In this document: one piece after another, positions 1,749-63,004 of the stretch
How the letters are laid out: every line of letters begins with the position of its first letter
Position numbering within the stretch: the first letter of the stretch is position 1
Source of the DNA: a phage
Sequence record: OZ335964.1
Strand: one strand, 5' to 3'
DNA length: 64,000 nucleotides
The notes under the pieces: generated by a model
The model's database searches: none
Told to the model about the DNA's origin: nothing
The model's input: only the letters and a program-made list of their open reading frames with translations
Program-made: the position numbers and the translations under genes

Positions 1749-4700
1749 ATGGCAGATTTATTAAATCAACATTTTAAAGCCACATTTGGCTTTGATGCTG
1801 GTAACGAAAAAGTCGTTAATGTAGCACTTGCAGATAAGAACACTCTCACTGATGCCGTTAACGTCGAATTTTTCAATTACCATAACGGTATTACGCAGTA
1901 TGACACAACTCGCGGTTATGATCAATACGGTACTGCAATCTATCAAAACCGTCCTTACTATGCAAAAGAAGATATCGCAAAACCAGCCGGAGAATTTGAT
2001 CCGACTAAATGGCAAGCACTGCGTACTGATCCACGTTGGGATTACATTGCAGCGACGTCCGGCGATACTCCCTTAAAGTCCGGTGATTATATCGCGGCGG
2101 ATTGCCAATTTGCAAACTTGACTTTCTCTATGCCTAACAAACCAGCCGAGGGAGATACTATAACAGTAAAAGATATCGGTGGCAAGTGTGGCGTAAACGA
2201 ATTATCGTTCCTTAGTTCCGGTCATGAGTTCTATCATAACGGAAACGTGTATAATCGCAAGTGGTATTGCACTACCCCTTATTCTATGGTGTATTTCATC
2301 TTTGCTCGTAACCGTTGGCATGTCTATCAGACTGGAACGGAGCCGCGCGGGGTATATGCACAACCAGCGATCGATCCTATCCAGATGCAGAACGGCGATC
2401 AGATATTCCGTCGCAGTGCGTTAGGTGAAATCAGTCTCGTGTTGCCTAAATTCGCTAATAATGGTGATGTGGTTTATACCACGGATCTGGATGGTCTGAC
2501 AGCAACCAACCACGTTACGATCAAGACTCATGAAGGAGCGCCGGATCATTCAATTGGCGCGGCTGGCGTGAAAGAGATTGTTGGTAAACGTAGCGGTCAT
2601 GGTGCATTCATCTTTGATATTGCAGAAAACTTATGGCGTGTCTGGGATGGCGACCAGTCTGTTCGTTTAAATCCGATTGTATCGGATACCCGTTTATCTC
2701 CGAATAGCTATGTTGCTGTATTTGGTGACAAAGATGTTACTCTGACTCTTCCTAGCAATGTAGAAATTGGTGACCGTATTCAGGTATCTATGCAGTATAT
2801 GCACGGAAACCAGAATTGCAAAATCGTAACTGCTGACGCAGATACAAAAATTCTTATGCAAAAGAATATGTTACAATTCCCTAAACGCAGTGAATACCCA
2901 TTCAACGGCGTTAATACATGGGGCGAAGTAACAGAATTATCATTCAATGCAGAGAAAGATTATGTTCCTTATCTGGAGTTCTCTTATACAGAAGGTGATG
3001 ACGGTAAGAAACACTGGTTGATTGCACATGCTCACCCGATGGTTGAACGCGTCGATCCTAAGCGTAAAGCGCGTGTAGGTGTTATTGCACTGGCTACTCA
3101 GGAAGAAACCAATAAAAACCATGAAGATAATCCTAACGATGAAGTAGCAGTTACCCCAAAAATGCTGGCTAACAAAACCGCAACCGAAACACGACGCGGT
3201 ATTGCTCGCATTGCTACTCAGGCGGAAACTCATCAAAATACTGGTTCCAACTTCCTCGATGATGTTATTGTTACGCCTAAAAAGCTGAATAACTGCGTTG
3301 CTACCGAAGAACGACGCGGGGTACTGGAAATCGCTACCCAGAATGAAACTAACGAAGGCTTAGACGATACCCGCGCTATTACTCCTAAGAAATTAGAAGA
3401 ACGTCGCGCTAGCGAAACTCTGGCAGGGATCGCGGAAATTGTAACTAATGGCGGTAAAGCTGCAACCGTTCGCGGTCAAACTGGCACTGGCATTTATGAT
3501 ATTAATGACCATGCTAAGATTGTTACCCCGCATAACCTGAATGAAGTTAAAGCTACCGAAACGTCTCGCGGTGTGGGTTATCTGGCAACTGATGCAGAAG
3601 TGCAAGGAGCAACGGAAACAACGCCACAAGATGCATTATTCATCACTACCCGTACTTTAACTAAGCGCACAGCAACAGAAACACGCACCGGGATCGCGGA
3701 GATTGCAACTCAGGAAGAAACCAACTTAGGGCAAAGTGATAACCATATTGTTACGCCTAAAAAGCTGCATACTCGCCGTGCTACTGAAACACTTCACGGT
3801 TTGGCTGAAATTGCCACACAAGACGAGTTTGACGCAGGACGCGATGATGCTCGCATTTCTACCCCGTTGAAGATTAAAACTTTCTTTGAACGTGCACAAC
3901 GTCTGAAAGTAGATCCGACTCAAGGGCTTAATCTTGAGGGTAATTTGTGGGATGGTATCACGATTCGCGGTTTGGATGCAAATGAAACCACTAAAGGTGT
4001 TGCTAAAGTTGCTACCCAGCAATTAACCGATGAAGGTCAAGATGATACTACCATTATCACGCCGAAAAAGCTACATGCTAAAAAGGCAACAGAAGATAAA
4101 GAAGGTATTATTCGAGTTGCTACAGAAGAAGAGGCTAAAGGTGGTGATTTAGGTAATGTTGCAATCACTCCTAAAACCTTTAAACTGGTTGTTCAGGATG
4201 CAGAAGACTGGAAAGCTACCGAAGGACGACGCGGATTCCTGAAAGTATCAACCAAAGAAAACTGTTTCGTTGGTGACAATTTACAGGGTTCTACTCAAGC
4301 ACTTGAACAATACCAGCATGAAGGGATTGCCGTAACTCCACGCGGTTTAAACTATGCTCTTGATAATTTCTTACCGAAAATGGCAACCGCTCAGAATAGT
4401 TTGAAATTAGGCAACGTAGAGGCCGCTAAATGGGCGCGTAGAGACGTAGATCAGGTTATTGAGTCCAACTATACCTTTAATAAAAAAGTCACTGTAAAAG
4501 GCGAATTAGAGGGATTAAAATCTGGATCGTTTGAAACTCTTTATATAACCAAAAATTCAACAGAAGAGGCGAGTACAGGGAATCTTGTTTTAGGTCTTCG
4601 TGGACAGAATGGTCATACCGGAATTGCACTGCATGGAACAACCGGAGACGTTGAGAACTCATGGGCTATGCTGGTAGGTGGCACTGGAACGAATCAAATC

Positions 4701-5480
4701 ACCAGTCCAACGGCAATTGCTTTTGGTGGAATTAATGATGTTGGTTATATTGACCATTATGCTTTTGCAATTGAACGTAATGGTGATGTTGCAGCATATC
4801 AGGATTTTATCGCAGGTCGTAACCTGATGGCTAAATCAGGTGGTCTTTACATCGGTGATCATGAAAATGCGGCAATGACTTACGCTTCCGGTGTTCTTAA
4901 TATTGGACACGGTAAAGTAAACTTTAAGGCTGGTTATCAGGAATTGACCACAGAGATCGCAGGACAGAAATATCAAATTGTTCATGCAGGAAACGCTGAC
5001 GAAGTTCTTAACCGTCAATTTGTTAAGAATGCTGGTGATACGATGACCGGAAAGCTGATTATGGACAATGCCGCAATTGTTTCTGTTAAACATGAAGCAA
5101 CGGCAGCAACCGCACCAGCCATCGGTAATATCGGCTTCTGGAATATGCGCGTGGCAACACAGAATATTGCAGACACCTACCCAGAAAAGAAAAATGGTAC
5201 ATTGATGCAATGGGGTACTGATGAAAACGGCCTTACCCAAATCTGGTCGCCTGATGGTACTCATAAGCATTATATCCGTTCCGGTACAGATGGTCAATGG
5301 ACCGCATGGGGCGAAATTTACACCAAACAGAACAAGCCTACTGCTCAGGAAATCGGGGCAGTGGTTGCCGAAGGTGGTTTGATGAACTCTATGACGGTGC
5401 GTGACTGGATCAAGGTTGGTAATGTTAAAATCATCGCCAATAATCTGACTCGTACCGTAGATTTTATCTGGGAAGACTAA
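1749..5480 (+). CDS. 34: long tail fibre proximal subunit gp34
   Basis: 1243 aa; N-terminal block and repeated GIAxIATQxETN...TPKKL motifs typical of T4 gp34; late promoter and SD upstream. Confidence 0.85.
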   Translation: MADLLNQHFKATFGFDAGNEKVVNVALADKNTLTDAVNVEFFNYHNGITQYDTTRGYDQYGTAIYQNRPYYAKEDIAKPAGEFDPTKWQALRTDPRWDYIAATSGDTPLKSGDYIAADCQFANLTFSMPNKPAEGDTITVKDIGGKCGVNELSFLSSGHEFYHNGNVYNRKWYCTTPYSMVYFIFARNRWHVYQTGTEPRGVYAQPAIDPIQMQNGDQIFRRSALGEISLVLPKFANNGDVVYTTDLDGLTATNHVTIKTHEGAPDHSIGAAGVKEIVGKRSGHGAFIFDIAENLWRVWDGDQSVRLNPIVSDTRLSPNSYVAVFGDKDVTLTLPSNVEIGDRIQVSMQYMHGNQNCKIVTADADTKILMQKNMLQFPKRSEYPFNGVNTWGEVTELSFNAEKDYVPYLEFSYTEGDDGKKHWLIAHAHPMVERVDPKRKARVGVIALATQEETNKNHEDNPNDEVAVTPKMLANKTATETRRGIARIATQAETHQNTGSNFLDDVIVTPKKLNNCVATEERRGVLEIATQNETNEGLDDTRAITPKKLEERRASETLAGIAEIVTNGGKAATVRGQTGTGIYDINDHAKIVTPHNLNEVKATETSRGVGYLATDAEVQGATETTPQDALFITTRTLTKRTATETRTGIAEIATQEETNLGQSDNHIVTPKKLHTRRATETLHGLAEIATQDEFDAGRDDARISTPLKIKTFFERAQRLKVDPTQGLNLEGNLWDGITIRGLDANETTKGVAKVATQQLTDEGQDDTTIITPKKLHAKKATEDKEGIIRVATEEEAKGGDLGNVAITPKTFKLVVQDAEDWKATEGRRGFLKVSTKENCFVGDNLQGSTQALEQYQHEGIAVTPRGLNYALDNFLPKMATAQNSLKLGNVEAAKWARRDVDQVIESNYTFNKKVTVKGELEGLKSGSFETLYITKNSTEEASTGNLVLGLRGQNGHTGIALHGTTGDVENSWAMLVGGTGTNQITSPTAIAFGGINDVGYIDHYAFAIERNGDVAAYQDFIAGRNLMAKSGGLYIGDHENAAMTYASGVLNIGHGKVNFKAGYQELTTEIAGQKYQIVHAGNADEVLNRQFVKNAGDTMTGKLIMDNAAIVSVKHEATAATAPAIGNIGFWNMRVATQNIADTYPEKKNGTLMQWGTDENGLTQIWSPDGTHKHYIRSGTDGQWTAWGEIYTKQNKPTAQEIGAVVAEGGLMNSMTVRDWIKVGNVKIIANNLTRTVDFIWED

Positions 5481-5515: not shown

Positions 5516-6655
5516 ATGACACAAGAGATAGAATTACGCAATACTGGAATTAAGTTTGCGCATTTCGACGAAGACTCCGCGACATTTACAAGCATTTCAG
5601 AAAACAACTCTGTGATGTATAAGCTGGAAGTGCGCGGATCTAATGCGGATTCTTCCAAACCAGCAAGGATTAGATTTAATGGAGTGGAGATCGTCGGGAC
5701 TGGCTATGAGACTGGCCTAAACTTTAAAGTTCTTACTCCAACTGGACAATTGCACGAAGAAAAGGTATTCTATGGTCGTGGTGCTGTATTGGCAATGCGT
5801 GATTATCTTTCTTTACTGAAAGGGGATTATATTATCGCAATGGCATCACATGGAGAACTATTTGCAGATGTTGTAAGTGATGGCATATTTGCTAAGTTAG
5901 GATCTGTATCATTCCCAAATCACATTTTGTTACAGCAAATGCCTCGTGTGTCCTATGCTGCAATTTATTCTACTAAAATGGGTAAAATTGTGTGCGAAGG
6001 GATGCAAGCAACGCACGGAGAAGGTCAAGATTCGTCTATACAAATTGAGAAAGTTTATGATACTATAGACGATCTTGCAATTACAGGAACACCACAACGA
6101 TTTTTAGATTATCCGGTCGAGTATGTTAGCGAAGATGCCGAACATTTCGAGCTAATACAATGGCCTCATGATGAGATCAGCGCACCACTTGAAGATTTTA
6201 ACATCAAGACAGGTGACAAACTATCAATATCTTTTGAATTGTTCCGTGATAGTGCCGCAGCCGCAGCCAACGTAACAGCGCGATTCTTCCATAACTATTT
6301 TATGGAGGGTCAATATAAAACTGGCGTTCGTTATAATGCCAGCCAGAAAGATCAATGGGAAAAGTTCGAAGCTGTTTATACTGTACCGGAAGGTGTCGAT
6401 AGTGTAGTAACTGGTTGTATCAGATATCCAACCAACTCCAATGAAGGTGTTGTTAAGGTTAGAAACATCCTGATCACTCCTATAAGTGGTGTCGTCAAAA
6501 CTACCGGACCTACTTCCTTTGGTGTTAACGGTATTAGAACAACTCACATTCAGGATAACGGTGATTTTACTAACCCTGTTATGAGTCTTCTTAAACTACC
6601 TAGAGACAATAAACATATCACATCCAACAACTTTAAAGAGTTCGATGTTGATTAA
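5516..6655 (+). CDS. 35: long tail fibre hinge protein gp35 (by synteny and size)
   Basis: 379 aa ORF between 34 and 36; size close to T4 gp35; no motif-level confirmation. Confidence 0.55.
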   Translation: MTQEIELRNTGIKFAHFDEDSATFTSISENNSVMYKLEVRGSNADSSKPARIRFNGVEIVGTGYETGLNFKVLTPTGQLHEEKVFYGRGAVLAMRDYLSLLKGDYIIAMASHGELFADVVSDGIFAKLGSVSFPNHILLQQMPRVSYAAIYSTKMGKIVCEGMQATHGEGQDSSIQIEKVYDTIDDLAITGTPQRFLDYPVEYVSEDAEHFELIQWPHDEISAPLEDFNIKTGDKLSISFELFRDSAAAAANVTARFFHNYFMEGQYKTGVRYNASQKDQWEKFEAVYTVPEGVDSVVTGCIRYPTNSNEGVVKVRNILITPISGVVKTTGPTSFGVNGIRTTHIQDNGDFTNPVMSLLKLPRDNKHITSNNFKEFDVD

Positions 6656-6816: not shown

Positions 6817-6824
6817 TATAAATA
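6817..6824 (+). promoter_or_regulatory. T4-type late promoter (TATAAATA) for genes 36-37
   Basis: Exact TATAAATA 34 nt upstream of gene 36 ATG. Confidence 0.55.
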
Positions 6825-6857: not shown

Positions 6858-8348
6858 ATGGCAGATTTGAAACATGGATCTACTGTAGGTGGATCTCCCA
6901 TTTGGACGCAAGGAAACTTGACGATCCAGCCAGCGGGTGATCAGCTTTTCTACAAAGGTCATAAAATCTATACCGCTTTTGATAAACCTTCGGCTGCCGA
7001 TTTTGATGCTGTTAGTGCATCCGAAGGTGGTACATTTCAGAAACTGGTCCATTTTGAGGAAGGTTTAAGCGTAGGTAGCGCATCGGCGGGTGAAACCAAA
7101 AAGAATGGTATCTTTAAAGGCCAGAGTGATGCTGCTAATTTTGACGGTGTAAGCTGGGGTTTGCATTCATGGAAGTCAATCGGCTTTGTTAATGCCCGTG
7201 ATGGCGTTATCATGGCGTATATTGACACCACAACGGGCGAATTTAAGTCTAAAGGGACTATCGAAGGGACAACCATTAAAGACACAGGTCAACGCGTCTA
7301 TAGCCCTGTTAATAAACCAACGAATAATGATTTAGATTTGGTGTCTCGTCGCGGTGATACCCTCACAGGAACATATAATTTAAACACTGTCACTGTTAAA
7401 CTATCGGTTGATTCGAAATTAATTGCAAGGGAACGTGATTTAATTAATTTTGATGCGACTAAGATCTATTATGGTAACGTTCTTGATACGTTGGTCTTCC
7501 GAAGTAAAGATGAGCCTACCATTTTTGTTAATGGCAAAGAAGGTCGTTTTTATCACACCAACAATAAACCAACTAAAGCCGATGTTGGACTAGGCAATGT
7601 CACCAATGATGCACAGGTTAAACGTGCTGGTGATATTATGGAAGGCAACTTGCAAGCGCCTAGAATGCTGGCGACAAACGATCCTGCTGGTCCTAATGAA
7701 TTGGTTCGTTTGAGCTACTTTGAGAAAAAATCAATGGTAGCAAATCCAACCATCATTGGAAACGTTGATTGGAACACTCTTATTAATCGCGGTATCTATC
7801 GTGTGGAAAATGCTGGATCAGGTACTAATAAACCGTCTGATAGCTATTATAACGGCGTTTTGATGGTATATCGCCCAGAAGATGCGGTCGGTACTCGTCG
7901 AATTGTTCAGGTGTATTATCCTGAATCTATTGACCATCCGATGTGCTGGCGTTCTTGTTCTAATGAATCGTGGACTGCATGGAACTATGTAGATCACCGT
8001 AAATTAGCCGATATTCGCTATGTTAACGTAACTGGCGATACCATGACAGGACCGTTAACTGTTCCGGCTGCAAATGGAGTTAGAACGGCTAAAACTAACT
8101 ATAATGGGGATAATTGCTATGCGGCTTTAAGTGGTGCTGATGGCACTGCTATGATTCACCGTATTAGTGATATTAAAGGGACCGAAAAGCTGGGGATCAC
8201 CCACGACTCAAAGGTCGTGTTTTTCCGTTCTAGAAACAATACTCAAACCGTAGACCGCTATCAGCTTTATCATGAAGGTAATAAACCAACTCCGGCTGAT
8301 GTTGGCGCAGTTCCACTTAATGCGGTGATTGATTTTGGTACTTTCTAA
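6858..8348 (+). CDS. 36: long tail fibre distal hinge subunit gp36
   Basis: 496 aa; N-terminal MADLKHGSTVGGSPIWTQGN block shared by T-even gp36/gp37 N-termini; larger than T4 gp36. Confidence 0.7.
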   Translation: MADLKHGSTVGGSPIWTQGNLTIQPAGDQLFYKGHKIYTAFDKPSAADFDAVSASEGGTFQKLVHFEEGLSVGSASAGETKKNGIFKGQSDAANFDGVSWGLHSWKSIGFVNARDGVIMAYIDTTTGEFKSKGTIEGTTIKDTGQRVYSPVNKPTNNDLDLVSRRGDTLTGTYNLNTVTVKLSVDSKLIARERDLINFDATKIYYGNVLDTLVFRSKDEPTIFVNGKEGRFYHTNNKPTKADVGLGNVTNDAQVKRAGDIMEGNLQAPRMLATNDPAGPNELVRLSYFEKKSMVANPTIIGNVDWNTLINRGIYRVENAGSGTNKPSDSYYNGVLMVYRPEDAVGTRRIVQVYYPESIDHPMCWRSCSNESWTAWNYVDHRKLADIRYVNVTGDTMTGPLTVPAANGVRTAKTNYNGDNCYAALSGADGTAMIHRISDIKGTEKLGITHDSKVVFFRSRNNTQTVDRYQLYHEGNKPTPADVGAVPLNAVIDFGTF

Positions 8349-8418: not shown

Positions 8419-11049
8419 ATGGCAGATTTAAGCAGAATCCAATTTAAACGCACTAGCACTAAAGGCCGTCGACCTGATGCTGGTACGATGAATCCGGGGG
8501 AATTGGCAATCAATCTTGCGGATCAATATCTTCTTACTAAAAATGATTCCGGTGCTATTATCAATTTAAGTTGTCCTCCGGTTTATGACCGTGATGTTAC
8601 AATGGCGGGTAAAGTTAAAGGAAATAATTATATTTTAAGTAAAACCGCTAACTATCTGGAAGATCAGACAGCGCGAGATCTTAACTACTTTGGTGCTTTC
8701 CGTACCAATGGTCTTGATGGTTTTCTCGAACTCACGCTAAACGTTCCTCATTCTTCTGGTGTTCAGCATGGTCGAGGATTTACTTTCCAGTATGGACACA
8801 CAGGAAACCGTGTAGAAACTTATGGTTATAATAAAGAAGGACAAAAAGCATTTAGTTATAAAATGTATCACGAAGGTGATAAACCAACTCCAGGAGAATT
8901 GAACGTCTATAGCAAACAAGAAATTGACCGTATGTTTGTGAAAAACGTTAAAATGTCTGTTCCTTCCGGTGACGCAACTCGTGGTTACTTTAAGATCGCG
9001 ACCGCAATGATTCCGCAGAATGGTCGAATGGCATTTTTACGAATTTACGGCGGAAACGGATATAATGTTAACTCCTACGACCAGGTTGATTTCCTTGAAA
9101 TTGTGATTCGCGGTGGTAATAATAACCCTAAAGGTGTTAGTATTGCTGCATATCGTCGAAATTCTTTGAACGTACATGAGGTATTTGCAATTAATACTTC
9201 CGGTGATAACTATGACATTTATGTTAACTATGGTCGTTACACCGATAACGTTATTGTCGAGTTTGGAAAAACTGTTGATGTTGCATTGACTGTTCATGAT
9301 GTTCCTGAATTTTCTGCGACTAAACCAGCAACCGGAACTAAATTTGATGCTCGTGTTATTACGATGTTCAACACCGAAAACAAAGCCGGAACGTTGATGT
9401 TTGATAATAACTCACAAGCAACCTATGATATTGTGAGCCTTAATAACGTACCAGACAACAATAAAAAATATATGCGTAAATTCCGCAGTCGTGCGGCGGA
9501 AACAATATGGCATGAAACTGTTCAAGGTGATGTGTATCGTTTGGCTACTGGTTCTACCGACCAAAAAGAAGTATTAAAAATTGTTGGTAGTGATGGTTTA
9601 TTTGTCGATAGACTTCATCTGCAAGGCAATAACGCGATTCGTATGTGGCGTCCTACTGGTCGTAGTAACTATTTTGAATATATGGATCAGCGAGATGGTG
9701 CTAATAAGCGTCAAGGTTGGTTTGGCTTTGGTTCTATAGATACTAACGATTTTCAATGGTATAGTGACGAAGGTAAAAACTTTGTTAAGCTAGAAGCAAG
9801 TGGTCAAGTATCTTTAAGTACTGGTGCGACCAAAATTGTATACACTAATGGTCAATATGTAGCTGCCAATTCTGATGCATACCGTATGATCTTTGGTAAT
9901 TACGGTGCATTCTGGCGTAATGACGGCACTAAAGTTTATCTTCTTTCTACGGCTGAAAATGATAAATTTGGTGGCTGGAATACCTACCGACCGTTTATCT
10001 ATAATTTAGTATCTGGAAACGTTGATTTGGGTGGTGATACCACAGCCTCCGCATTGACCTTAGAAGGTGCAAGCAAAACCGCTCGATTTGGTGGTCATGT
10101 TTATACAGGCGGTAACTTACATAATACAGGTCAGTATATAACTATGGAGGCCGGACTTGCTGGTCAATCAATGGATTATATTCGTTTTAACCATTGGGGT
10201 AGTAGCAGCACCGGACGAAATAACATCTTGTATGTTGAAGACAGCAAAGGTCGTCATTTTTCTACCGAACGTTCTTCCACAGGAGCACTTAAAGCTGACT
10301 TTTTAGGTGAACTCGAAGTTGGTGGTAAGCTGACATGGGGTAAGGGTACAGCTAAATCCTCGTTTAACTTACGAGTGTGGGGCAATGATTCCCGTAAACA
10401 AGTGTTTGAATGTGCGGACGAAAGCGGTTGGCATTTCTATACCCAGCGTGCGGGTGGTCCTGGAACTAATGTAATTGAGTTTAACGTAAACGGTAGGATT
10501 ACTGTTCCTGAATTATATGTTGGTACTGCTGCATCAATATCTAAAATCAATGGTGCTTTTGGTGTCGGTACTACTAATGGATTAGGTGGTAGTTCAATTA
10601 CTCTGGGTGATAGTGATACTGGCTTTAAGCAAAATGGCGATGGCAACCTTGATGTTTATGCTAACAACGTTGCAGTAATGCGTTTTACTTCTGGTGCGAT
10701 TACCGCAAACAAACAATTGAACGTATCTGGTCGTGTTAACCCGTCTGATTATGGAAACTTTGATGGTCGTTATATCAAAAAGACCAGAGGATGGACTAGA
10801 ATATGGACGGGTACACTAGGTGGGAATACTCAGACCGGAACATTGCCTCAAGACCTTCGCTACCGTAACGTGTGGATCGTAATGGCTGATGGATTTAAAA
10901 ACTTCTTCCGTTTTGGTGATGACGGTACTTATTATCTGTCTGGTTATGGAGGTTGGATTAAAATGCAACTTCACTCTAGTGGTAAGATCTTTAAAAATAT
11001 TCAAGACCATTATTGCGTTCCTCGCGAAATTTGGGTTGAAAACGAATAA
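8419..11049 (+). CDS. 37: long tail fibre distal subunit gp37 (receptor-binding fibre)
   Basis: 876 aa; conserved N-terminal MADLSRIQFKRTSTKGRRP..GELAINLADQ block; C-terminal ~150 aa divergent, no His-rich T4-type tip. Confidence 0.8.
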   Translation: MADLSRIQFKRTSTKGRRPDAGTMNPGELAINLADQYLLTKNDSGAIINLSCPPVYDRDVTMAGKVKGNNYILSKTANYLEDQTARDLNYFGAFRTNGLDGFLELTLNVPHSSGVQHGRGFTFQYGHTGNRVETYGYNKEGQKAFSYKMYHEGDKPTPGELNVYSKQEIDRMFVKNVKMSVPSGDATRGYFKIATAMIPQNGRMAFLRIYGGNGYNVNSYDQVDFLEIVIRGGNNNPKGVSIAAYRRNSLNVHEVFAINTSGDNYDIYVNYGRYTDNVIVEFGKTVDVALTVHDVPEFSATKPATGTKFDARVITMFNTENKAGTLMFDNNSQATYDIVSLNNVPDNNKKYMRKFRSRAAETIWHETVQGDVYRLATGSTDQKEVLKIVGSDGLFVDRLHLQGNNAIRMWRPTGRSNYFEYMDQRDGANKRQGWFGFGSIDTNDFQWYSDEGKNFVKLEASGQVSLSTGATKIVYTNGQYVAANSDAYRMIFGNYGAFWRNDGTKVYLLSTAENDKFGGWNTYRPFIYNLVSGNVDLGGDTTASALTLEGASKTARFGGHVYTGGNLHNTGQYITMEAGLAGQSMDYIRFNHWGSSSTGRNNILYVEDSKGRHFSTERSSTGALKADFLGELEVGGKLTWGKGTAKSSFNLRVWGNDSRKQVFECADESGWHFYTQRAGGPGTNVIEFNVNGRITVPELYVGTAASISKINGAFGVGTTNGLGGSSITLGDSDTGFKQNGDGNLDVYANNVAVMRFTSGAITANKQLNVSGRVNPSDYGNFDGRYIKKTRGWTRIWTGTLGGNTQTGTLPQDLRYRNVWIVMADGFKNFFRFGDDGTYYLSGYGGWIKMQLHSSGKIFKNIQDHYCVPREIWVENE

Positions 11050-11091
11050 GGAAAACTCCCAGGGAAGGGAAACTACTAAGGAGAAACGGCT

Positions 11092-11331
11092 ATGGTCTAT
11101 AATATCGTCATTGGTGCTTTGTCTAATTTCGGAATGAAATTATTGTCAAAGTTAATTAGTGAAAAGATGCTCACTAAAATTTTCTTCTACTGCGCTCGTC
11201 GTCTTGCGGCGTATACCAATACGCCAATTGATGATCGTTTTGTGGAAGAACTTTATAAGGAGTTTAATAAAGATCAGTCAGAAGATAGCAACGAGCAAAA
11301 TAAAAATAGTGATAGTCAAGTACCTAAATAA
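11092..11331 (+). CDS. hypothetical small protein (79 aa) between gp37 and holin
   Basis: AAGGAG SD 8 nt upstream; hydrophobic/amphipathic N-terminal half, acidic C-terminus; occupies the slot where gp38 sits in T4. Confidence 0.45.
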   Translation: MVYNIVIGALSNFGMKLLSKLISEKMLTKIFFYCARRLAAYTNTPIDDRFVEELYKEFNKDQSEDSNEQNKNSDSQVPK

Positions 11332-11364: not shown

Positions 11365-12021
11365 ATGCAAGTTTCTGAAAAAGAGAAAGACTTTGCTATC
11401 TCAAATGTCCTGCGCGCTATTTTCACAACTAAAAGCACGGAGTTGCTCGTACTTCGTGTTTTTGCTGCCGTCGTGTTGTCCATATTAGCATTTGTCGTTT
11501 ATAGCAAAAACGAGTTATTTGCCTTGTATAAAGAGACTCGTTATGAGACTTATGCTCACGTTCTCCAGGTAGAGAAAGACCGCAATTTTGATAATGCAGC
11601 ACAGGAGCAGTTACAGATAGTTCATGTGTCGGCTGATGCCGATTTTTCTGCTGTTTTTAGTTTTCGTCCGAAAAACCTAAATTATTTTGTTGATTTGGTG
11701 GCATATGAAGGAAAGCTACCGCATACAATCGATGAAAAAAATTTAGGCGGATTTCCTATCAATAAAACGAGTGAAGAATATCGTAGGCATCTTTTAGGTA
11801 AATCCTATTTTACCGATAAAGATTTCCAGTATATTCCGTCGAGGGAGAAAAAATTAGAGAATATCGATATAGGGTTTATGTATTCTTGTCCTATATTCAA
11901 TCTCGATAATGTCTATTCTGGTAGTATCGCCATTGCATGGAAGAATAAACCGGATATTGACATTGAGAATTTAGATACTCTTTGCAATCAATCTGCCAGA
12001 ATCCTCGGAAGGATTAGATAA
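11365..12021 (+). CDS. t: holin (T4 t-type)
   Basis: 218 aa; single N-proximal TM (LLVLRVFAAVVLSILAFVVY) plus large C-terminal domain; conserved T-holin blocks (LQIVHVSADADFSAVFSFRPKNLNYFVDLVAYEGKLP, ARILGR end). Confidence 0.75.
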   Translation: MQVSEKEKDFAISNVLRAIFTTKSTELLVLRVFAAVVLSILAFVVYSKNELFALYKETRYETYAHVLQVEKDRNFDNAAQEQLQIVHVSADADFSAVFSFRPKNLNYFVDLVAYEGKLPHTIDEKNLGGFPINKTSEEYRRHLLGKSYFTDKDFQYIPSREKKLENIDIGFMYSCPIFNLDNVYSGSIAIAWKNKPDIDIENLDTLCNQSARILGRIR

Positions 12022-12025
12022 CTTA

Positions 12026-12058
12026 AAGGGGAAGCCTTTCGGCCTCCCCTTCTTTTTT
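12026..12058 (+). terminator. rho-independent terminator ending the plus-strand late unit
   Basis: AGGGGAAGCC-TTTC-GGCCTCCCCT hairpin followed by TCTTTTTTAT. Confidence 0.65.
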
Positions 12059-12305
12059 ATTGGCGCATAGAAGCCCCTGAATCACATTTTGACGCTGTAT
12101 GATGAAAACATGTAGCGTACCAGTCATCGGCTTGTTTGTCTTCGTCAGAGAACGCATAGTTTCGTTGTATGCCGTTTTCTACTTTGACCAGTACAATAGC
12201 TGTTTCTGGAAGATCAATCAATCGGACAAAATCACCATCTTCCCACTCTACACGAGCAATATCATAACCCATCTCAAAATAAACAATCGCTTGCTCTAAT
12301 CTCAT
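12057..12305 (-). CDS. hypothetical protein (82 aa), possible DUF2829/Tad2-like fold
   Basis: ATGA overlap with upstream ORF; LEQAIVYFEMGYDIARVEW ... DKQADDWYA pattern loosely resembles DUF2829; unverified. Confidence 0.4.
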   Translation of the reverse strand: MRLEQAIVYFEMGYDIARVEWEDGDFVRLIDLPETAIVLVKVENGIQRNYAFSDEDKQADDWYATCFHHTASKCDSGASMRQ

Positions 12306-13865: not shown

Positions 13866-14624
13866 TTACTTGCACACGTATTGATCTACATCAATTGCGC
13901 CACCGAATGTAGGATGACGTTTTTCAAATCGAATAGTTCCGTCGTTTGGTTCGAAAACGGAGTATTCATATAGATCTTTCTTGCCAACATTCTTATAAAA
14001 CCCGCCTTTAGTCATAACGGTTTCTTGTACGTTTGCTTTGTGTACGTTGTATTCGTCAATGTATACAAAATCAACCATCTTCCCATTTTTAATGGTTACT
14101 TTAAGATCTCCTGGTTGGTTTCCATATTTTGCATACAGTGGAGCTTCTTTAATTTTGGTGGAAATTCCATCTTTCATACTCCACTCATAACGAACGGTGC
14201 ATTGATAGGTAAAAGTTTCGACCTTCGGTTCTTCCACCACTTTTTCTTCCTGTTTCGGTTGTTCTTCGTCAACCTTCACGGAAGTCTCTGAATCGCTTTC
14301 TGACGCGGTTTCTTCTTTAGGTAATACATTCATCAAGTTTTGGATTTGAGCGTTGTATACAGCCTCCAGTGGCTGAATCTGCCCGATATTGATCATTGTA
14401 TCACGAACAGTTTTATTCCAGTTGCGTTGCTCTTGTTTCAGAGACGGATCAATCTTAACAGCCTTAACATATACTTCATGAAGTTTCGAATCCAGTGCGG
14501 AGATTGACTCATTAGCACAAATAAACTTCTCTGATTTGGTAGTGGCTTTAGCGCAATCAAAGGACGCAGCATTAGCACCGAAAGCAGTAGCAGAAAGAAC
14601 GATAGCAGCGATAATGTTTTTCAT
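13866..14624 (-). CDS. secreted LprI-like protein (signal peptide + DUF1311-like domain + Cys-bracketed C-terminal domain)
   Basis: Track ORF 13866..14687 trimmed to M22 with GAGGA SD; MKNIIAAIVLSATAFGANA signal peptide; FDCAKATTKSEKFICANESISALDSKLHEVY..QRNWNK matches DUF1311 pattern; C-terminal domain bracketed by YQC and YVCK cysteines. Confidence 0.6.
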   Translation of the reverse strand: MKNIIAAIVLSATAFGANAASFDCAKATTKSEKFICANESISALDSKLHEVYVKAVKIDPSLKQEQRNWNKTVRDTMINIGQIQPLEAVYNAQIQNLMNVLPKEETASESDSETSVKVDEEQPKQEEKVVEEPKVETFTYQCTVRYEWSMKDGISTKIKEAPLYAKYGNQPGDLKVTIKNGKMVDFVYIDEYNVHKANVQETVMTKGGFYKNVGKKDLYEYSVFEPNDGTIRFEKRHPTFGGAIDVDQYVCK

Positions 14625-30239: not shown

Positions 30240-30324
30240 ATAATAAAACCATTATAGAGTAGTGTCAATCACAAAGTGTATGTGATCTATAAATAAGTTT
30301 GCTAGAACTAAAGGAGACCACAAA

Positions 30325-31254
30325 ATGAACTATAAACGTATTTATGATAACCTGATTGAACGTGCTAAGACTAGAACTATCGACGGATATACAGAAAAGC
30401 ATCACATCATACCACGTTGTATGAATGGAAGCGATGATGATAGCAATCTAGTTAGACTCACCCCAGAGGAACATTACATTGCTCACCTTCTGTTAGTTAA
30501 GATTTACCCAGATAACAGTAAATTGGTTTATGCTGCAAATATGATGTGCGTTTCTTCTGATTCACATAATGGAGAAAGACAGTCAAATAAACGTCATGGT
30601 TGGTTGCGTAGAAAAATGGCAGAGGCACATAGTAAAAGAATCCGCGATAGAATGGAGAACGATCCTGAATATAGAGCTAAGGTTTCGGAATGGGCTAGAA
30701 AAATGGGTAAAGCCATGAAAGGAGTTAAGCGAGGACCGGAATTTAGCAGAAAGTTGGCAGAAAGAAACAGAAATACCGTGATGAAAGAAGAAACTAAACG
30801 TAAAATCGGGGAAGCCAACAAAGGAAGGAAACGTACAGAAGAATATAAAAGAAAACATAGTGAGCGGTATAAGGGTGAAGGTAATCCGATGTATGGTAAA
30901 CGAGGAAAGGAACATCCGGCATATGGTACTAAACCGTGGAACAACCAAACATCATTTGTTGAGCAGAAAGCATGGTGGCGGTTCGCTGGCATGTTCTATG
31001 ACTGGTATCAGATGGATATTGACCGTGGGAAACATAAACGCCACGGTCATAAAAGAATGCTTGATGAATTGGGTTTTGTTGGTTGGCGAGAAAAAGAGCC
31101 AGCCGCAGCAAGACGATCAATTGAAATGTTTGCTAAAGGCTGGAATCCTTATGAAGACCAAGAATGGTTAGATTATATTAATACCCGCTTTCCAAACGAC
31201 GATAGTTTTCCGCGTTCTTCAACATATACAAAACAAACAAATCCTTTGCAGTAA
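30325..31254 (+). CDS. HNH homing endonuclease with NUMOD3-like repeats (opposite strand)
   Basis: EKHHIIPRCMNGSDDDSNLVRLTPEEHYIAH HNH motif; repeated GxxNxxYGK motifs; AAGGAG SD; only plus-strand gene in the early region. Confidence 0.8.
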   Translation: MNYKRIYDNLIERAKTRTIDGYTEKHHIIPRCMNGSDDDSNLVRLTPEEHYIAHLLLVKIYPDNSKLVYAANMMCVSSDSHNGERQSNKRHGWLRRKMAEAHSKRIRDRMENDPEYRAKVSEWARKMGKAMKGVKRGPEFSRKLAERNRNTVMKEETKRKIGEANKGRKRTEEYKRKHSERYKGEGNPMYGKRGKEHPAYGTKPWNNQTSFVEQKAWWRFAGMFYDWYQMDIDRGKHKRHGHKRMLDELGFVGWREKEPAAARRSIEMFAKGWNPYEDQEWLDYINTRFPNDDSFPRSSTYTKQTNPLQ

Positions 31255-45103: not shown

Positions 45104-46772
45104 TCATTTCAGTGAATCGCCCACGTTTAACCATCTTGAGATGACGGCTAAAATCATCAGGGTTATGGTCACGATGGCTGATAATATACACGTTATCATC
45201 TAACTTGTCAATGATGGAATCAAGTGCTTTTACGCCTTGAACGTCGGTCGCTCCATCATAAATTTCGTCGAGTACCAACAAAGAAATATTAGTACCAGAT
45301 ACCTTACCAGCAACATCACGCCATGTAAAGAGCATCGCAAGATCAATACGTGCTTTTTCGCCTTGACTGAATGATGTATACGAAAACGATTCACGCCCCC
45401 GTGATTTGATTGTTTCGTTAAACTCTTCATCTAGCGTAAAGATATAATCTGCTTCCATGATATCAAGATAATACGCAATCCGATCATTGAAATATGGAAT
45501 ATATTTCTTGACGATAGACGCCTTAACACCGGAATCCTTCAACATTTCTGTTACAAATCCACGATGATATTTTTCAAGAACTAGCTTTGATTTTTCATTA
45601 GTAATCTCTACCAGTTCGTGTTCCAGTTTAGCAAGTTCTTCGGAATTGTCAACCCTTTCTTTTTGTAATTCCTGAATTGCTTTCTGGATCTGTTTAGCAC
45701 GACCTACAGATGCCGTTAAATTCGCTCTCTGTGACTCTATAGCGCGTTTAATTTCCAAGACCTTAGTTTGTGCTGTCTGGAAAGAATTGGCTTTCTCTGC
45801 GTATTCTACGCGTTTCTCGTCAATAAGAGACAGTTTATGTTCCGCTTGTGCTTTTTGTTCGCGTACAGCCTGATCATTACCCTGAATGATCGGTTGTGTG
45901 CACGTCGGGCAGACCCCGCCTTTCTCGTGCATATGGATAACACGATCAAAGTTCTGGATCTGTGCACCAATCTGTGCGATAGCCGTATTAATTTTAGCCA
46001 ATGCCGCGCTAGGATCTTCCGGCATAACAACAGCCAATAGCTCATCGGTCAAGCGCGTTTCTTCGGCTTTGAATGCTTTAGCCGATTCTACCTCTTTATC
46101 ATACATATTCTGCAAACGCTGTAGATTCTCGGCACTCGCCTTGCTAGCGTCTTCTATGTACTTTTTATGAGTGTTGATTTGTTGCTGAACGTGATTAGCT
46201 TTCATTTCCTGCATTTGGATATTCTGGGTAATCTCGCGCACATACGCTTTATTCAGTTTATCCATTTCGCCTAGCGTAGCAATATCAAGCAAATCCTCGA
46301 CCAGTTTACGGCGACCCGCTGCCGGAAGACTCATAAACGGAACATAACCAGCAGTACCTAAAACAACGATCTGTTTAAAGCTGGCTAGGTTCATGCCTAT
46401 GATACCTTCAAAATATTCCTGAAAGTCTTTGGTGCTTGCGCTCTCGTCGATCTTTTGACCGTCGCGATGCACTTCGAATACTTCCGGTTTTTGACCACGT
46501 TTGATATAAAACTCTTTCCCGTCCAGTTCAAACCAGACTTCGACTAACAGTTTCTTTTTGTTGACGCTGTTAATCAATTGGCCTTTCTTGATACTACGAA
46601 ACGGTTTACCGAACAACACAAAGCAAAGAGCCTCGATCATGGTCGATTTACCAGCACCGTTAACACCAGTGATTAGTGTCTTTTTGAATCCGTCTAGCTG
46701 AATCTCAACAGGTTCAGCACCCACGCTCATTATATTTTGATAGCGCAAGGTTTTAAAATTTAACTTTGCCAT
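45090..46772 (-). CDS. 46: recombination endonuclease subunit gp46 (SbcC/Rad50-like ATPase)
   Basis: Walker A GVNGAGKST, long coiled-coil middle, C-terminal Walker B LLVLDE; start set to M6 with GGAGTGG SD (560 aa). Confidence 0.85.
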   Translation of the reverse strand: MAKLNFKTLRYQNIMSVGAEPVEIQLDGFKKTLITGVNGAGKSTMIEALCFVLFGKPFRSIKKGQLINSVNKKKLLVEVWFELDGKEFYIKRGQKPEVFEVHRDGQKIDESASTKDFQEYFEGIIGMNLASFKQIVVLGTAGYVPFMSLPAAGRRKLVEDLLDIATLGEMDKLNKAYVREITQNIQMQEMKANHVQQQINTHKKYIEDASKASAENLQRLQNMYDKEVESAKAFKAEETRLTDELLAVVMPEDPSAALAKINTAIAQIGAQIQNFDRVIHMHEKGGVCPTCTQPIIQGNDQAVREQKAQAEHKLSLIDEKRVEYAEKANSFQTAQTKVLEIKRAIESQRANLTASVGRAKQIQKAIQELQKERVDNSEELAKLEHELVEITNEKSKLVLEKYHRGFVTEMLKDSGVKASIVKKYIPYFNDRIAYYLDIMEADYIFTLDEEFNETIKSRGRESFSYTSFSQGEKARIDLAMLFTWRDVAGKVSGTNISLLVLDEIYDGATDVQGVKALDSIIDKLDDNVYIISHRDHNPDDFSRHLKMVKRGRFTEMNVNI

Positions 46773-62191: not shown

Positions 62192-63004
62192 TCAATCTAC
62201 GTTAGTTACATAAACTTCTTGTGTATCAGAAGACTTGCCTCCTGAACGATCTAGGCAATAGGTCTTATTCAACAGGACGCAGTTTAGATCATTCCTCTTG
62301 ATAAAGTCAAGAAGATGATCATTTACCTTTCCCTTATGATGCGTGACATTACTGATACCAAACTGAAAACCACGCACCATAATAGATTCCACCCACTGAT
62401 AGAATTTAATCTCTTCCTCGTCACTCCAGAACTTATTATATTCCGCAGAAGTGATAAGGTACGGCGGGTCCAAATAAACGAAATCGCCTGGCAAGATCTC
62501 GATCTCGTCATATCGTCCAGAAGTAAAATTGATTCGACCGTCTTTGTTTTCTTCTTTAAAATTCAGGACACGCTCTACCGCGTTTTCGTTAAAAGTCCGG
62601 CGACCAAAATTAGCATTAAATTCGCCCTTCCGGTTATGTCGGTTAATGTTGCTAAAACTATGCTGAATCAACACAAACAGCGATAGCGGATCTGGATTCT
62701 CGTTATACTTCTTACGGAATGTCATGTAAGCGTCTTTATCTTCGCGAGACAAACCATTCTCGGCAATAATCCGCTTGATCGTAGAAACCGGATCAGGACA
62801 CTCGTCAATGGCCTTGTAAGCGTCAATTAAACGATGGTCGTAGTCATTAGCCAGCACATCACCTTCGACGTACAGAGACACGCTCAAGCCACCACAAAAG
62901 GCATCGACAAAGCGGTTATAGTGCTTAGGGAAATACTTACTAACACCAGGCAATAACTTTTCCTTATTGCCCGTATAGGGAATTAAACCTAATGCTTTCT
63001 TCAT
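62192..63004 (-). CDS. dam: DNA adenine methyltransferase (Dam-like, N6-A MTase)
   Basis: SAM motif FVDAFCGGLSV and catalytic DPPY (VYLDPPYL); 270 aa. Confidence 0.85.
   Translation of the reverse strand: MKKALGLIPYTGNKEKLLPGVSKYFPKHYNRFVDAFCGGLSVSLYVEGDVLANDYDHRLIDAYKAIDECPDPVSTIKRIIAENGLSREDKDAYMTFRKKYNENPDPLSLFVLIQHSFSNINRHNRKGEFNANFGRRTFNENAVERVLNFKEENKDGRINFTSGRYDEIEILPGDFVYLDPPYLITSAEYNKFWSDEEEIKFYQWVESIMVRGFQFGISNVTHHKGKVNDHLLDFIKRNDLNCVLLNKTYCLDRSGGKSSDTQEVYVTNVD

What the first reader, a model, noticed from the sequence alone, without database searches (positions are those of the whole stretch)
10600..11331. Divergent gp37 tip, no gp38-type gene, and a small ORF ahead of the holin
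gp37 keeps the conserved N-terminus, but its last ~150 residues lack the His-rich T4-type tip. No gp38-sized adhesin or chaperone gene follows; instead a 79-aa ORF with a strong SD sits between gene 37 and holin t. The receptor-binding determinant is therefore probably the gp37 C-terminus itself, and the small ORF could be a fibre chaperone or a lysis-cassette component.
Basis: partly seen in the sequence, partly recalled or inferred. Interest (0 to 1): 0.5.

Follow-up and report, generated by a model that had tools for sequence, protein, structure and literature searches.

The report
T4-like tail fibre with T7-type tip
In this RB49-like coliphage the long tail fibre protein gp37 ends in a receptor-binding knob of the kind phage T7 uses, instead of the genus's usual self-cleaving chaperone domain plus separate gp38 adhesin, and the small gene behind it belongs to a known family of lysis accessory genes (PM2 P18), so it is not a fibre chaperone.

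Summary
The window is a Krischvirus (RB49-like T4-type phage) with g34-g35-g36-g37, a 79-aa ORF, then holin t. gp37 residues 1-693 are 75-81% identical to RB49 and kaaroe gp37. From residue 694 the RB49-type end, including the Peptidase_S74 self-cleaving chaperone, is replaced. Residues 641-876 align collinearly with the T7/T3 gp17 C-terminus, and residues 784-876 match the solved T7 tip domain (4A0T; E 1e-25, about 48% identity). None of 59 Krischvirus genomes, and no other large phage in 50,697 records, has this tip. The same fibre body plus tip occurs in two siphovirus-like contigs, with no chaperone or adhesin gene downstream. The distal locus falls about 3.6 kb beyond the window, so g38 presence is undetermined. 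The conclusion that gp37's own C-terminus binds the receptor is nevertheless well supported. The 79-aa ORF (RB49 "Dc5") belongs to Pfam PF26925 Phage_PM2_Gpl, the family of the PM2 P18 outer-membrane-disruption factor. That homology to RB49 was published in 2007. The ORF is 94-100% conserved across three fibre-tip architectures and is linked to lysis genes.

The parts
6817..6824 (+). T4-type late promoter TATAAATA upstream of g36. It is the only such motif before g36-g37-ORF79-t, so it probably drives the operon.
   Evidence: matches at 1713, 6817 and 30288 only; that it drives the operon is inferred
8419..11049 (+). gene 37, long tail fibre distal subunit, 876 aa
   Evidence: phrog_1699, E 4.7e-100; Gp34_trimer at residues 419-528
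8419..10497 (+). Krischvirus-type gp37 shaft, residues 1-693, 75-81% identical to RB49 and kaaroe
10378..10449 (+). Motif WGNDSRKQVFECADESGWHFYTQR (residues 654-677), shared by Krischvirus gp37, the siphovirus fibre and T7/T3 gp17. It lies just upstream of the point where RB49 homology ends and is the likely left recombination linker.
   Evidence: (T7 residues 312-355)
10339..11046 (+). T7/T3 gp17-like C-terminal module, residues 641-876, aligning collinearly with the last ~260 residues of gp17 (region of the pyramid domain plus the tip)
   Evidence: T3 33.5% identity over 221 aa, E 5e-20; alignment A2, 34-36% identity
10606..10686 (+). GDSDTGFKQNGDGNLDVYANNVAVMRF motif (residues 730-756), common to P2/Mu/lambda-type prophage fibres and S16 gp37
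   Evidence: 6F45, E 2e-4; invariant columns
10768..11046 (+). T7 gp17-type globular tip domain, residues 784-876; proposed receptor-binding domain
   Evidence: 7BOZ/4A0T residues 462-553, E 1e-25; 47-53% identity to T7/T3-like phages
11050..11091 (+). Conserved intergenic segment with Shine-Dalgarno AAGGAG at 11078-11083. Krischvirus homology resumes exactly at the gp37 stop codon, marking the right recombination boundary.
11092..11331 (+). 79-aa ORF (RB49 'Dc5'), PM2 P18/gp l family (PF26925); proposed accessory lysis factor
   Evidence: PMC1950889; PMC6356626
11365..12021 (+). holin t (218 aa)
   Evidence: PF11031, E 4.9e-61; phrog_860
12028..12059 (.). Hairpin GGGGAAGCC-TTTC-GGCCTCCCC followed by a T-run, between convergent genes; probable terminator ending the g36-g37-ORF79-t unit
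   Evidence: read directly from the sequence (8 of 9 stem pairs); not listed by the scan

Best explanation
This is an RB49-like (Krischvirus) phage whose distal long-tail-fibre tip has been swapped by recombination.

Fibre: the gp37 shaft (residues 1-693) is the genus type. From residue 694 the usual end is replaced by a module homologous to the C-terminus of the T7/T3 fibre gp17. The usual end consists of a tip that docks the gp38 adhesin plus a self-cleaving S74 chaperone domain. The replacement finishes in the T7-type globular tip domain (residues 784-876). The left crossover lies at a motif shared by all these fibres (WGNDSRKQ..ESGWHFYTQR). The right crossover lies at the stop codon, ahead of a conserved intergenic segment. 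I infer that gp37 is not C-terminally processed, carries no gp38, and binds the receptor directly through the loops of its tip domain. The receptor is most likely an LPS-core or other outer-membrane structure, as for T7. Whether a now redundant g38 survives at the genus's distal locus cannot be seen in this window.

Small ORF: the 79-aa gene is not part of the fibre. It is a homologue of PM2 P18 (gp l), a small helical protein without a transmembrane domain that helps disrupt the outer membrane at lysis. It is probably co-transcribed late with holin t and most likely acts as an accessory lysis factor.
For: Fibre tip:
- The last 93 residues match solved T7 gp17 tip structures 7BOZ/4A0T at E 4e-26 to 1.5e-25, ending in the same VENE.
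- Residues 641-876 align collinearly with T7/T3 gp17.
- The window gp37 has no Peptidase_S74 hit, whereas RB49, kaaroe and FL04 gp37 do, each paired with a PF05268 gp38.
- The window contains no remnant of the RB49 tip or of gp38.
- The same shaft plus tip (73% identity over 806 residues) is a single-gene side fibre on two siphovirus-like contigs. The next gene there is a tail-tube protein, so the module works without a dedicated downstream partner.
- The T7 tip domain interacts with LPS (PMC11821841).
- Both junctions sit at conserved sequences.

Small ORF:
- Its cluster relatives (64-96% identical) carry PF26925 Phage_PM2_Gpl.
- hhalign of the family profile against PM2 gp l gives probability 88%, E 2.7e-6.
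- P18 homologues in RB49 and Felix O1 were reported in PMC1950889. P18 helps disintegrate the outer membrane (PMC6356626).
- Homologues sit directly after an endolysin gene in three phage or prophage contexts, before holin t in Krischvirus, and before a TM-plus-coiled-coil Rz-like gene in Ounavirinae.
- It has no transmembrane segment (maximum Kyte-Doolittle 19-residue average 1.31, against 2.86 for holin t) and is predicted as three helices.
- It is 94-100% identical in phages with three different tip architectures.
Against: - No receptor or adsorption data exist for this phage.
- The AlphaFold2 monomer model of the tip was unusable (pLDDT 48.9), so the fold rests on sequence homology alone.
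- The tip is only about 47-53% identical to T7/T3 and its loops differ, so the receptor cannot be named.
- About 75% of Krischvirus genomes (44 of 59) keep g38 at a locus outside the window, so a gp38 may still be encoded.
- For the ORF: RB49, and by inference the genus, already has canonical spanin genes (pseT.2/pseT.3), so an outer-membrane disruptor would be redundant.
- In 7-11-like phages the homologue sits in the structural module, away from recognisable lysis genes.
- P18 function has been tested only in PM2.
Confidence: 0.65

Rival explanations
1. The phage still uses a gp38 adhesin, encoded at the distal Krischvirus locus beyond the window. The T7-like end of gp37 would be only a scaffold or a secondary binder.
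For: 44 of 59 Krischvirus genomes carry g38 at that locus. The window's gp37 shaft is closest to kaaroe, which has the distal g38. RB49 gp38 is a proven host-range determinant (PMC9569957).
Against: The three Krischvirus gp37 examined that are paired with gp38 (RB49, kaaroe, FL04) end in Peptidase_S74, whose removal precedes attachment of gp38 (PMC9569957). The window gp37 has neither that domain nor the RB49-type tip. It is capped by a globular T7 tip that is itself a receptor-binding domain. The same fibre works without gp38 in siphovirus contexts.
Confidence: 0.12
2. The 79-aa ORF is a tail-fibre assembly chaperone for gp37, functionally replacing gp38 at its old position.
For: It occupies the slot just after the fibre gene in Krischvirus and Ounavirinae. 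In 7-11-like phages it lies in the structural module near fibre genes.
Against: In FL04, MIZ4 and KMB43 it coexists with an adjacent g38, so it does not replace g38. It stays 94-100% identical while the fibre tip changes completely. In other phages it follows an endolysin gene with no fibre gene nearby on the same strand. It belongs to the PM2 P18 lysis-factor family, and PM2 has no tail fibres. The siphovirus copies of this fibre have no such gene downstream.
Confidence: 0.07
3. The 79-aa ORF is a lysis-timing regulator acting on holin T (antiholin-like or holin cofactor), not an outer-membrane disruptor.
For: It sits immediately upstream of t, with no late promoter or terminator motif found between them. 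In PM2 it overlaps the holin-like gene k. Krischvirus already has spanins for the outer-membrane step.
Against: The only experimental assignment for the family is outer-membrane disruption (PMC6356626). Homologues accompany unrelated lysis partners (endolysin, Rz-like protein, T holin), which argues against a specific interaction with holin T.
Confidence: 0.15
4. The chimeric gp37 is an assembly artefact that joins a Krischvirus to a co-occurring siphovirus.
For: The two fibre genes share 73% identity over 806 residues, which could confuse an assembler. The exact protein is not on record anywhere.
Against: An artefact would need a second crossover exactly at the stop codon, where the two genomes share only about 6 nt. 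The tip is only 74-78% identical to the known siphovirus copies, so no donor read set is evident. The reading frame, stop codon, intergenic segment and Shine-Dalgarno sequence are all intact.
Confidence: 0.04

Closest known systems
T7/T3 gp17 tail fibre C-terminal domain (pyramid plus tip; PDB 4A0T, 4A0U, 7BOZ)
   Same: There is a collinear alignment over about 235 residues. The tip domain is about 47-53% identical and sits at the extreme C-terminus with the same ...VENE end. There is no chaperone domain and no adhesin partner.
   Different: Here it is mounted on a T4-type long tail fibre of a contractile-tailed phage rather than on a podovirus fibre. The region equivalent to the pyramid domain carries the GDSDTGF...YANN motif typical of P2/Mu/lambda-type fibres. 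The loop sequences differ, so the receptor may differ.
RB49/T2/S16-type distal fibre: gp37 with C-terminal S74 self-cleaving chaperone plus a gp38 adhesin (PDB 6F45)
   Same: Same genus, same shaft (75-81% identity over residues 1-693), same operon position, and the same downstream Dc5 and t genes.
   Different: No Peptidase_S74 domain, no RB49-type tip and no adjacent g38. The adhesin function is predicted to reside in gp37 itself.
T4 gp37 needle tip (HxH iron-binding; folded with the gp38 chaperone)
   Same: The receptor-binding site lies within gp37 itself.
   Different: No HxH motifs, no sequence similarity to the T4 tip, and no gp38-type chaperone gene in the window.
Side fibre of uncultured siphovirus-like phages (ENA ERZ781272 NODE-77; E. 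coli assembly GCA_029285975 contig)
   Same: 73% identity and collinear over gp37 residues 71-876, including the T7-type tip (74-78% identical). No chaperone or adhesin gene downstream.
   Different: Those fibres have a long coiled-coil N-terminus instead of the gp36-binding N-terminus, and they sit between tail-tube genes of a non-contractile tail module.
PM2 P18 (gp l), Pfam PF26925 Phage_PM2_Gpl
   Same: A small helical protein with no transmembrane domain. It keeps the conserved pattern E..(I/L)..FF..A..(L/I)A..T.T..DD, though PM2 gp l itself departs from it at several positions. It is encoded next to lysis genes. The RB49 and Felix O1 homologues have already been noted in the literature (PMC1950889).
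   Different: 79 aa with an acidic, disordered C-terminal tail, against 51 aa in PM2. It is paired with a T4-type holin in a phage that also has spanins. Its function in tailed coliphages is untested.

Membership tests
T7 gp17-type tail-fibre tip domain | Significant sequence homology to the solved tip domain (T7 gp17 residues ~465-553) | tested here: met
   phmmer against PDB: 7BOZ and 4A0T, E 4e-26 and 1.4e-25, query residues 784-876 aligned to 462-553. tblastn gives 47-53% identity to T7/T3-like phages.
T7 gp17-type tail-fibre tip domain | The domain forms the extreme C-terminus of the fibre and is preceded by a region collinear with the gp17 pyramid domain | tested here: met
   Alignment A2 is collinear from residue 641 to the C-terminal VENE, 34-36% identity overall. 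The pyramid-equivalent region is much more divergent than the tip.
T7 gp17-type tail-fibre tip domain | Trimeric beta-sandwich fold | tested here: inconclusive
   The AlphaFold2 monomer built on a 13-sequence alignment gave pLDDT 48.9, below 50 across the tip. No fold search was run on it.
T7 gp17-type tail-fibre tip domain | Binds the host receptor (LPS) directly | not testable with these tools
   Literature on T7 only (PMC11821841).
RB49/T2/S16-type gp37 plus gp38 adhesin system | C-terminal Peptidase_S74 self-cleaving chaperone domain on gp37 | tested here: not met
   No PF13884 hit at E <= 0.1 in the window gp37. RB49, kaaroe and FL04 gp37 hit it at E ~1e-11. No remnant by tblastn.
RB49/T2/S16-type gp37 plus gp38 adhesin system | A PF05268 gp38 gene in the genome | tested here: inconclusive
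   None in the 64-kb window. The genus's distal locus (RB49 45367-46143, about 4.6 kb past dam) would lie at about 67.6 kb, outside the window.
T4-type gp37 needle tip | Repeated HxH motifs near the C-terminus | tested here: not met
   Zero HxH motifs in the whole protein and 2 His in the last 200 residues.
PM2 P18 / gp l (PF26925 Phage_PM2_Gpl) | Match to the family profile | tested here: met
   Cluster representatives 64-96% identical to the ORF carry PF26925 as a precomputed hit. hhalign of family alignment A1 against PM2 gp l gives probability 88.5%, E 2.7e-6. The local Pfam copy lacks this model, so the ORF itself could not be scored directly.
PM2 P18 / gp l (PF26925 Phage_PM2_Gpl) | Small protein with no transmembrane domain | tested here: met
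   Maximum Kyte-Doolittle 19-residue average is 1.31, against 1.10 for PM2 gp l, 2.19 for PM2 gp k and 2.86 for holin t. Predicted as three helices.
PM2 P18 / gp l (PF26925 Phage_PM2_Gpl) | Encoded within or next to the lysis genes | tested here: met
   Upstream of holin t here. After an endolysin gene in L008, L095 and L097. Before an Rz-like gene in Ounavirinae. After gp k in PM2. Exception: 7-11-like phages.
PM2 P18 / gp l (PF26925 Phage_PM2_Gpl) | Required for outer-membrane disruption at lysis | not testable with these tools
   Shown only for PM2 (PMC6356626, citing Krupovic et al. 2007).
Tail-fibre chaperone (gp38 of T4, Tfa, gp57A type) | Co-varies with, or is specific to, the fibre tip it folds | tested here: not met
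   The ORF is 93.7-100% identical in RB49, kaaroe, FL04, MIZ4, KMB43 and the window despite three tip architectures. It has no similarity to the gp38, Tfa or gp57A families.

The most novel reading that the evidence does not exclude
This would be a natural T4-type myovirus that has given up the two-component gp37/gp38 adhesin for a one-piece T7-type tip shared with siphoviruses. That would show the same receptor-binding module being traded among all three tail morphotypes. The phage might be left with an orphan g38 at the distal locus. In addition, the P18-like gene upstream of holin t may represent a third, spanin-independent class of outer-membrane lysis factor. It is widespread in model enterobacterial phages (RB49-like, Felix O1-like), where it could be tested genetically in E. 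coli.
Probability: 0.3. Interest if true: 0.55.

Novelty: new variant of a known kind. Interest (0 to 1): 0.4.

Why it matters
- Host-range prediction and engineering for T4-like therapeutic phages assume either a T4-type gp37 tip or a gp38 adhesin. This phage shows a third solution in the genus. A genome-based receptor predictor that looks for gp38 would get it wrong.
- It gives a natural precedent for grafting a chaperone-free T7-type tip onto a T4-type long fibre, and both junctions are defined at the sequence level.
- The 79-aa ORF is still annotated as 'hypothetical' or 'Dc5' in the Krischvirus and Ounavirinae records examined, although it belongs to the PM2 P18 lysis-factor family. E. 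coli phages would be a tractable system for working out what that family does alongside spanins.

Tried and rejected
- AlphaFold2 on gp37 residues 641-876 with a 13-sequence alignment gave an unusable model (pLDDT 48.9). I ran no fold search and rely on sequence homology to 4A0T.
- An exact look-up of gp37 in the gene-position index found nothing.
- Exact DNA strings from the tip found nothing in IMG/VR or in the GTDB genomes.
- An IMG/VR protein-pattern scan found only partial matches to the shaft or the GDSDTGF motif.
- The metagenome scan gave one siphovirus-like contig.
- NCBIfam gave no hits for the ORF or the tip.
- The local Pfam copy lacks PF26925, so its hits to the ORF were only noise.
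- I tried to guess g38 presence from which genomes best match the window's last 3 kb. The top hits mix g38-distal and g38-adjacent types, so this was uninformative.
- GC content shows no clear break at the tip.
- Rejected: the ORF as a membrane-spanning holin or antiholin, because it has no transmembrane segment.
- Rejected: the ORF as a gp38 replacement, because it coexists with g38 in FL04, MIZ4 and KMB43.
- The RB49 genome paper (PMC135041) is not held.
Full report
**What the window is.** Megablast of 8400-12100 hits 59 Krischvirus (RB49-like Straboviridae) genomes at 88-96% identity, but only over parts of the query. The RB49 and kaaroe annotations give the same gene order as the window: g34 (1749-5480), g35 (5516-6655), g36 (6858-8348), g37 (8419-11049), a 79-aa ORF (11092-11331, RB49 'Dc5') and holin t (11365-12021). 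Pfam and PHROGs agree: Phage_holin_T at E 4.9e-61, and phrog_1699 'long tail fiber distal subunit' at E 4.7e-100.

**Checking the observation.**
- gp37 residues 1-693 are 75% identical to RB49 and 81% to kaaroe.
- The C-terminus has no HxH motif.
- The gap to the next ORF is 42 nt, with AAGGAG 8 nt before the ATG.
- tblastn with two kinds of Krischvirus gp38, and with the RB49 gp37 C-terminus, finds nothing in the whole window (best E = 2.2).

**The gp38 argument is unsound for this genus.**
- Efimov et al. show that RB49 gp38 is the adhesin. [quoted passage not shown]
- RB49 g38 is at 45367-46143, about 4.6 kb beyond dam. In the window, dam is at 62192-63004, so the locus would fall near 67.6 kb, outside the window.
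- Of the 59 Krischvirus genomes, 44 carry the distal locus intact. In 15 the match to the locus is incomplete; in most of these the gap is about 870 bp, the size of g38.
- Three of those 15 that I opened (FL04, MIZ4, KMB43) have g37-g38-Dc5-t instead.
- RB49, kaaroe and FL04 gp37 all carry Peptidase_S74, and the RB49 and FL04 gp38 proteins are PF05268 plus Gp38_N.

**What the window's gp37 end really is.**
- Homology to RB49 stops after residue 693.
- tblastn of residues 620-876 finds T3/T7-like gp17 over residues ~655-875 at 31-35% identity (E 1e-17 to 2e-24).
- phmmer against PDB places residues 784-876 on the T7 gp17 tip domain (7BOZ, 4A0T, 4A0U; residues 462-553; E 4e-26 to 1.5e-25). The beta-strand positions are conserved and the C-terminus is identical (...VENE).
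- A four-way alignment is collinear from residue 641 to the end.
- All 225 phage records that match the tip are 37-41 kb T7-like genomes or T7 gene-17 fragments; none is a Krischvirus. IMG/VR has no full-length match either.
- The motif WGNDSRKQ..ESGWHFYTQR is shared by Krischvirus gp37 and T7 gp17. It lies just before the breakpoint.
- On the right, Krischvirus DNA homology resumes exactly at the stop codon. The same intergenic segment follows g37 in RB49 and g38 in FL04.
- These two junctions argue for natural cassette exchange and against misassembly.

**The same module elsewhere.**
- The protein search found P0001 (74% identity over the last 257 residues), a partial fibre protein on an E. 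coli assembly contig. The next genes on that contig are tail tube, distal tail protein and J-like tip.
- The metagenome scan found a 143-kb contig whose 1092-aa fibre is 73% identical and collinear with window gp37 residues 71-876. It lies between two major-tail-protein genes and is followed by a tape-measure gene.
- In neither contig does a chaperone or adhesin gene follow the fibre gene.
- This shaft-plus-T7-tip combination is therefore an established one-gene fibre. I conclude that the window's gp37 is itself the receptor-binding protein, through its tip domain.
- That conclusion is an inference from homology. No structure could be modelled (pLDDT 48.9), and the receptor cannot be named.

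**The 79-aa ORF.**
- PHROGs places it in phrog_402, function unknown.
- tblastn shows 94-100% identical copies in Krischvirus and 32-47% identical copies in Ounavirinae, 7-11-like phages and Vibrio phages.
- Database relatives all carry PF26925, whose name, 'Phage_PM2_Gpl', appears in the context tables.
- I fetched PM2. gp l is 51 aa and overlaps the end of gp k. hhalign of the family alignment against gp l gives probability 88.5% and E 2.7e-6 over 40 columns.
- Krupovic and Bamford wrote that P18 homologues are encoded by 'PaP3, Felix 01, and RB49' (PMC1950889). [quoted passage not shown]
- Genomic contexts fit a lysis role. The gene lies directly after an endolysin in a Vibrio phage, a 39-kb ENA metagenome contig and a Shewanella prophage. 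It precedes holin t in Krischvirus. In Ounavirinae it precedes a coiled-coil protein annotated 'holin', one homologue of which hits Rz-like spanin profiles.
- The exception is the 7-11-like group, where it lies in the structural module.
- The protein has no transmembrane segment, a basic N-terminal half (+5) and an acidic C-terminal half (-5), and three predicted helices.
- T44, D47 and D48 are invariant, and E24, F31, F32, A35 and T42 are at least 90% conserved, across 57 sequences. Conservation of the first helix supports the 79-aa start over the 65-aa alternative annotated in RB49.
- Because the ORF is unchanged while the tip architecture changes, and it coexists with g38 in FL04-type phages, a fibre-chaperone role is unlikely.

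**Transcription.** The only TATAAATA motifs on the + strand near the locus are at 1713 (before g34) and 6817 (before g36). A hairpin with a T-run follows t at 12028-12059. So g36-g37-ORF79-t probably form one late unit. This is inferred, not shown.

**Verdict.**
- The T7-type tip on a T4-type fibre is a new variant of the well-known mosaicism of tail fibres.
- The ORF's family assignment is already in the literature.
- Whether g38 persists in this genome remains open.

Noticed in passing
L094 7022-10300 (ENA ERZ781272 NODE-77, 143 kb) and L011 1-1334 (GCA_029285975 contig): A siphovirus-type tail module (two tail-tube paralogues, tape measure, distal tail protein, J-like tip) carries a side fibre 73% identical to Krischvirus gp37 residues 71-876. 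Nearly a whole T4-type distal fibre is therefore shared across tail morphotypes. This phage type is not in the 50,697-record phage collection.
   Followed up: partly
RB49 45367-46143 (L005 25367-26143) versus FL04 L093 3153-3935, MIZ4 L101 3654-4436, KMB43 L102 3655-4437: Within Krischvirus, g38 occupies one of two positions: a distal locus in 44 genomes, or beside g37 in at least 3 of the 15 genomes that lack the distal copy. The literature describes only the displaced arrangement.
   Followed up: partly
L007 3686-4060 (Moogle gp54), L006 3686-4060, L091 3701-4036, L096 5222-5566: The Ounavirinae gene annotated 'holin' after the P18-like ORF (phrog_4038) is mostly coiled coil, and one homologue hits Rz-like spanin PHROGs (E 2e-7). 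It may be an i-spanin rather than a holin. The apparent Sf14 counterpart (gp55, by gene order) was detected in virions by mass spectrometry (PMC11821841).
   Followed up: partly
window 11050-11091: The intergenic segment GGAAAACTCCCAGGGAAGGGAAACTACTAAGGAGAAACGGCT is conserved in Krischvirus whatever lies upstream (g37 in RB49 and kaaroe, g38 in FL04, the T7-type tip here). It looks like a fixed right-hand boundary for fibre-cassette exchange. FL04's g38 even ends with the RB49 gp37 codons AAAAAGAATTAA.
   Followed up: partly
window 30288-30295 and 30325-31254 (+): A third TATAAATA late-promoter motif sits 30 nt upstream of a lone + strand 309-aa ORF. The ORF begins MNYKRIYDNLIERAKTRTIDGYTEKHHIIP (an HNH-like motif) and lies inside a block of minus-strand genes. 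It is probably a late-expressed homing endonuclease.
   Followed up: no
L096 353-4947 (Logan SRR5149862 contig): An Ounavirinae-like contig has a 1355-aa fibre with Gp34_trimer and Peptidase_S74, then a 160-aa Gp38_N-domain protein, then the P18-like ORF and the Rz-like gene. This is the same order as Krischvirus FL04 (g37-g38-Dc5-t), in a different phage subfamily.
   Followed up: no
window 13866-14624 (-): A 252-aa ORF with a typical N-terminal signal peptide (MKNIIAAIVLSATAFGANAAS...) is conserved as a hypothetical protein in RB49 (RB49p262). It may be a secreted or periplasmic phage protein; its function is unknown.
   Followed up: no
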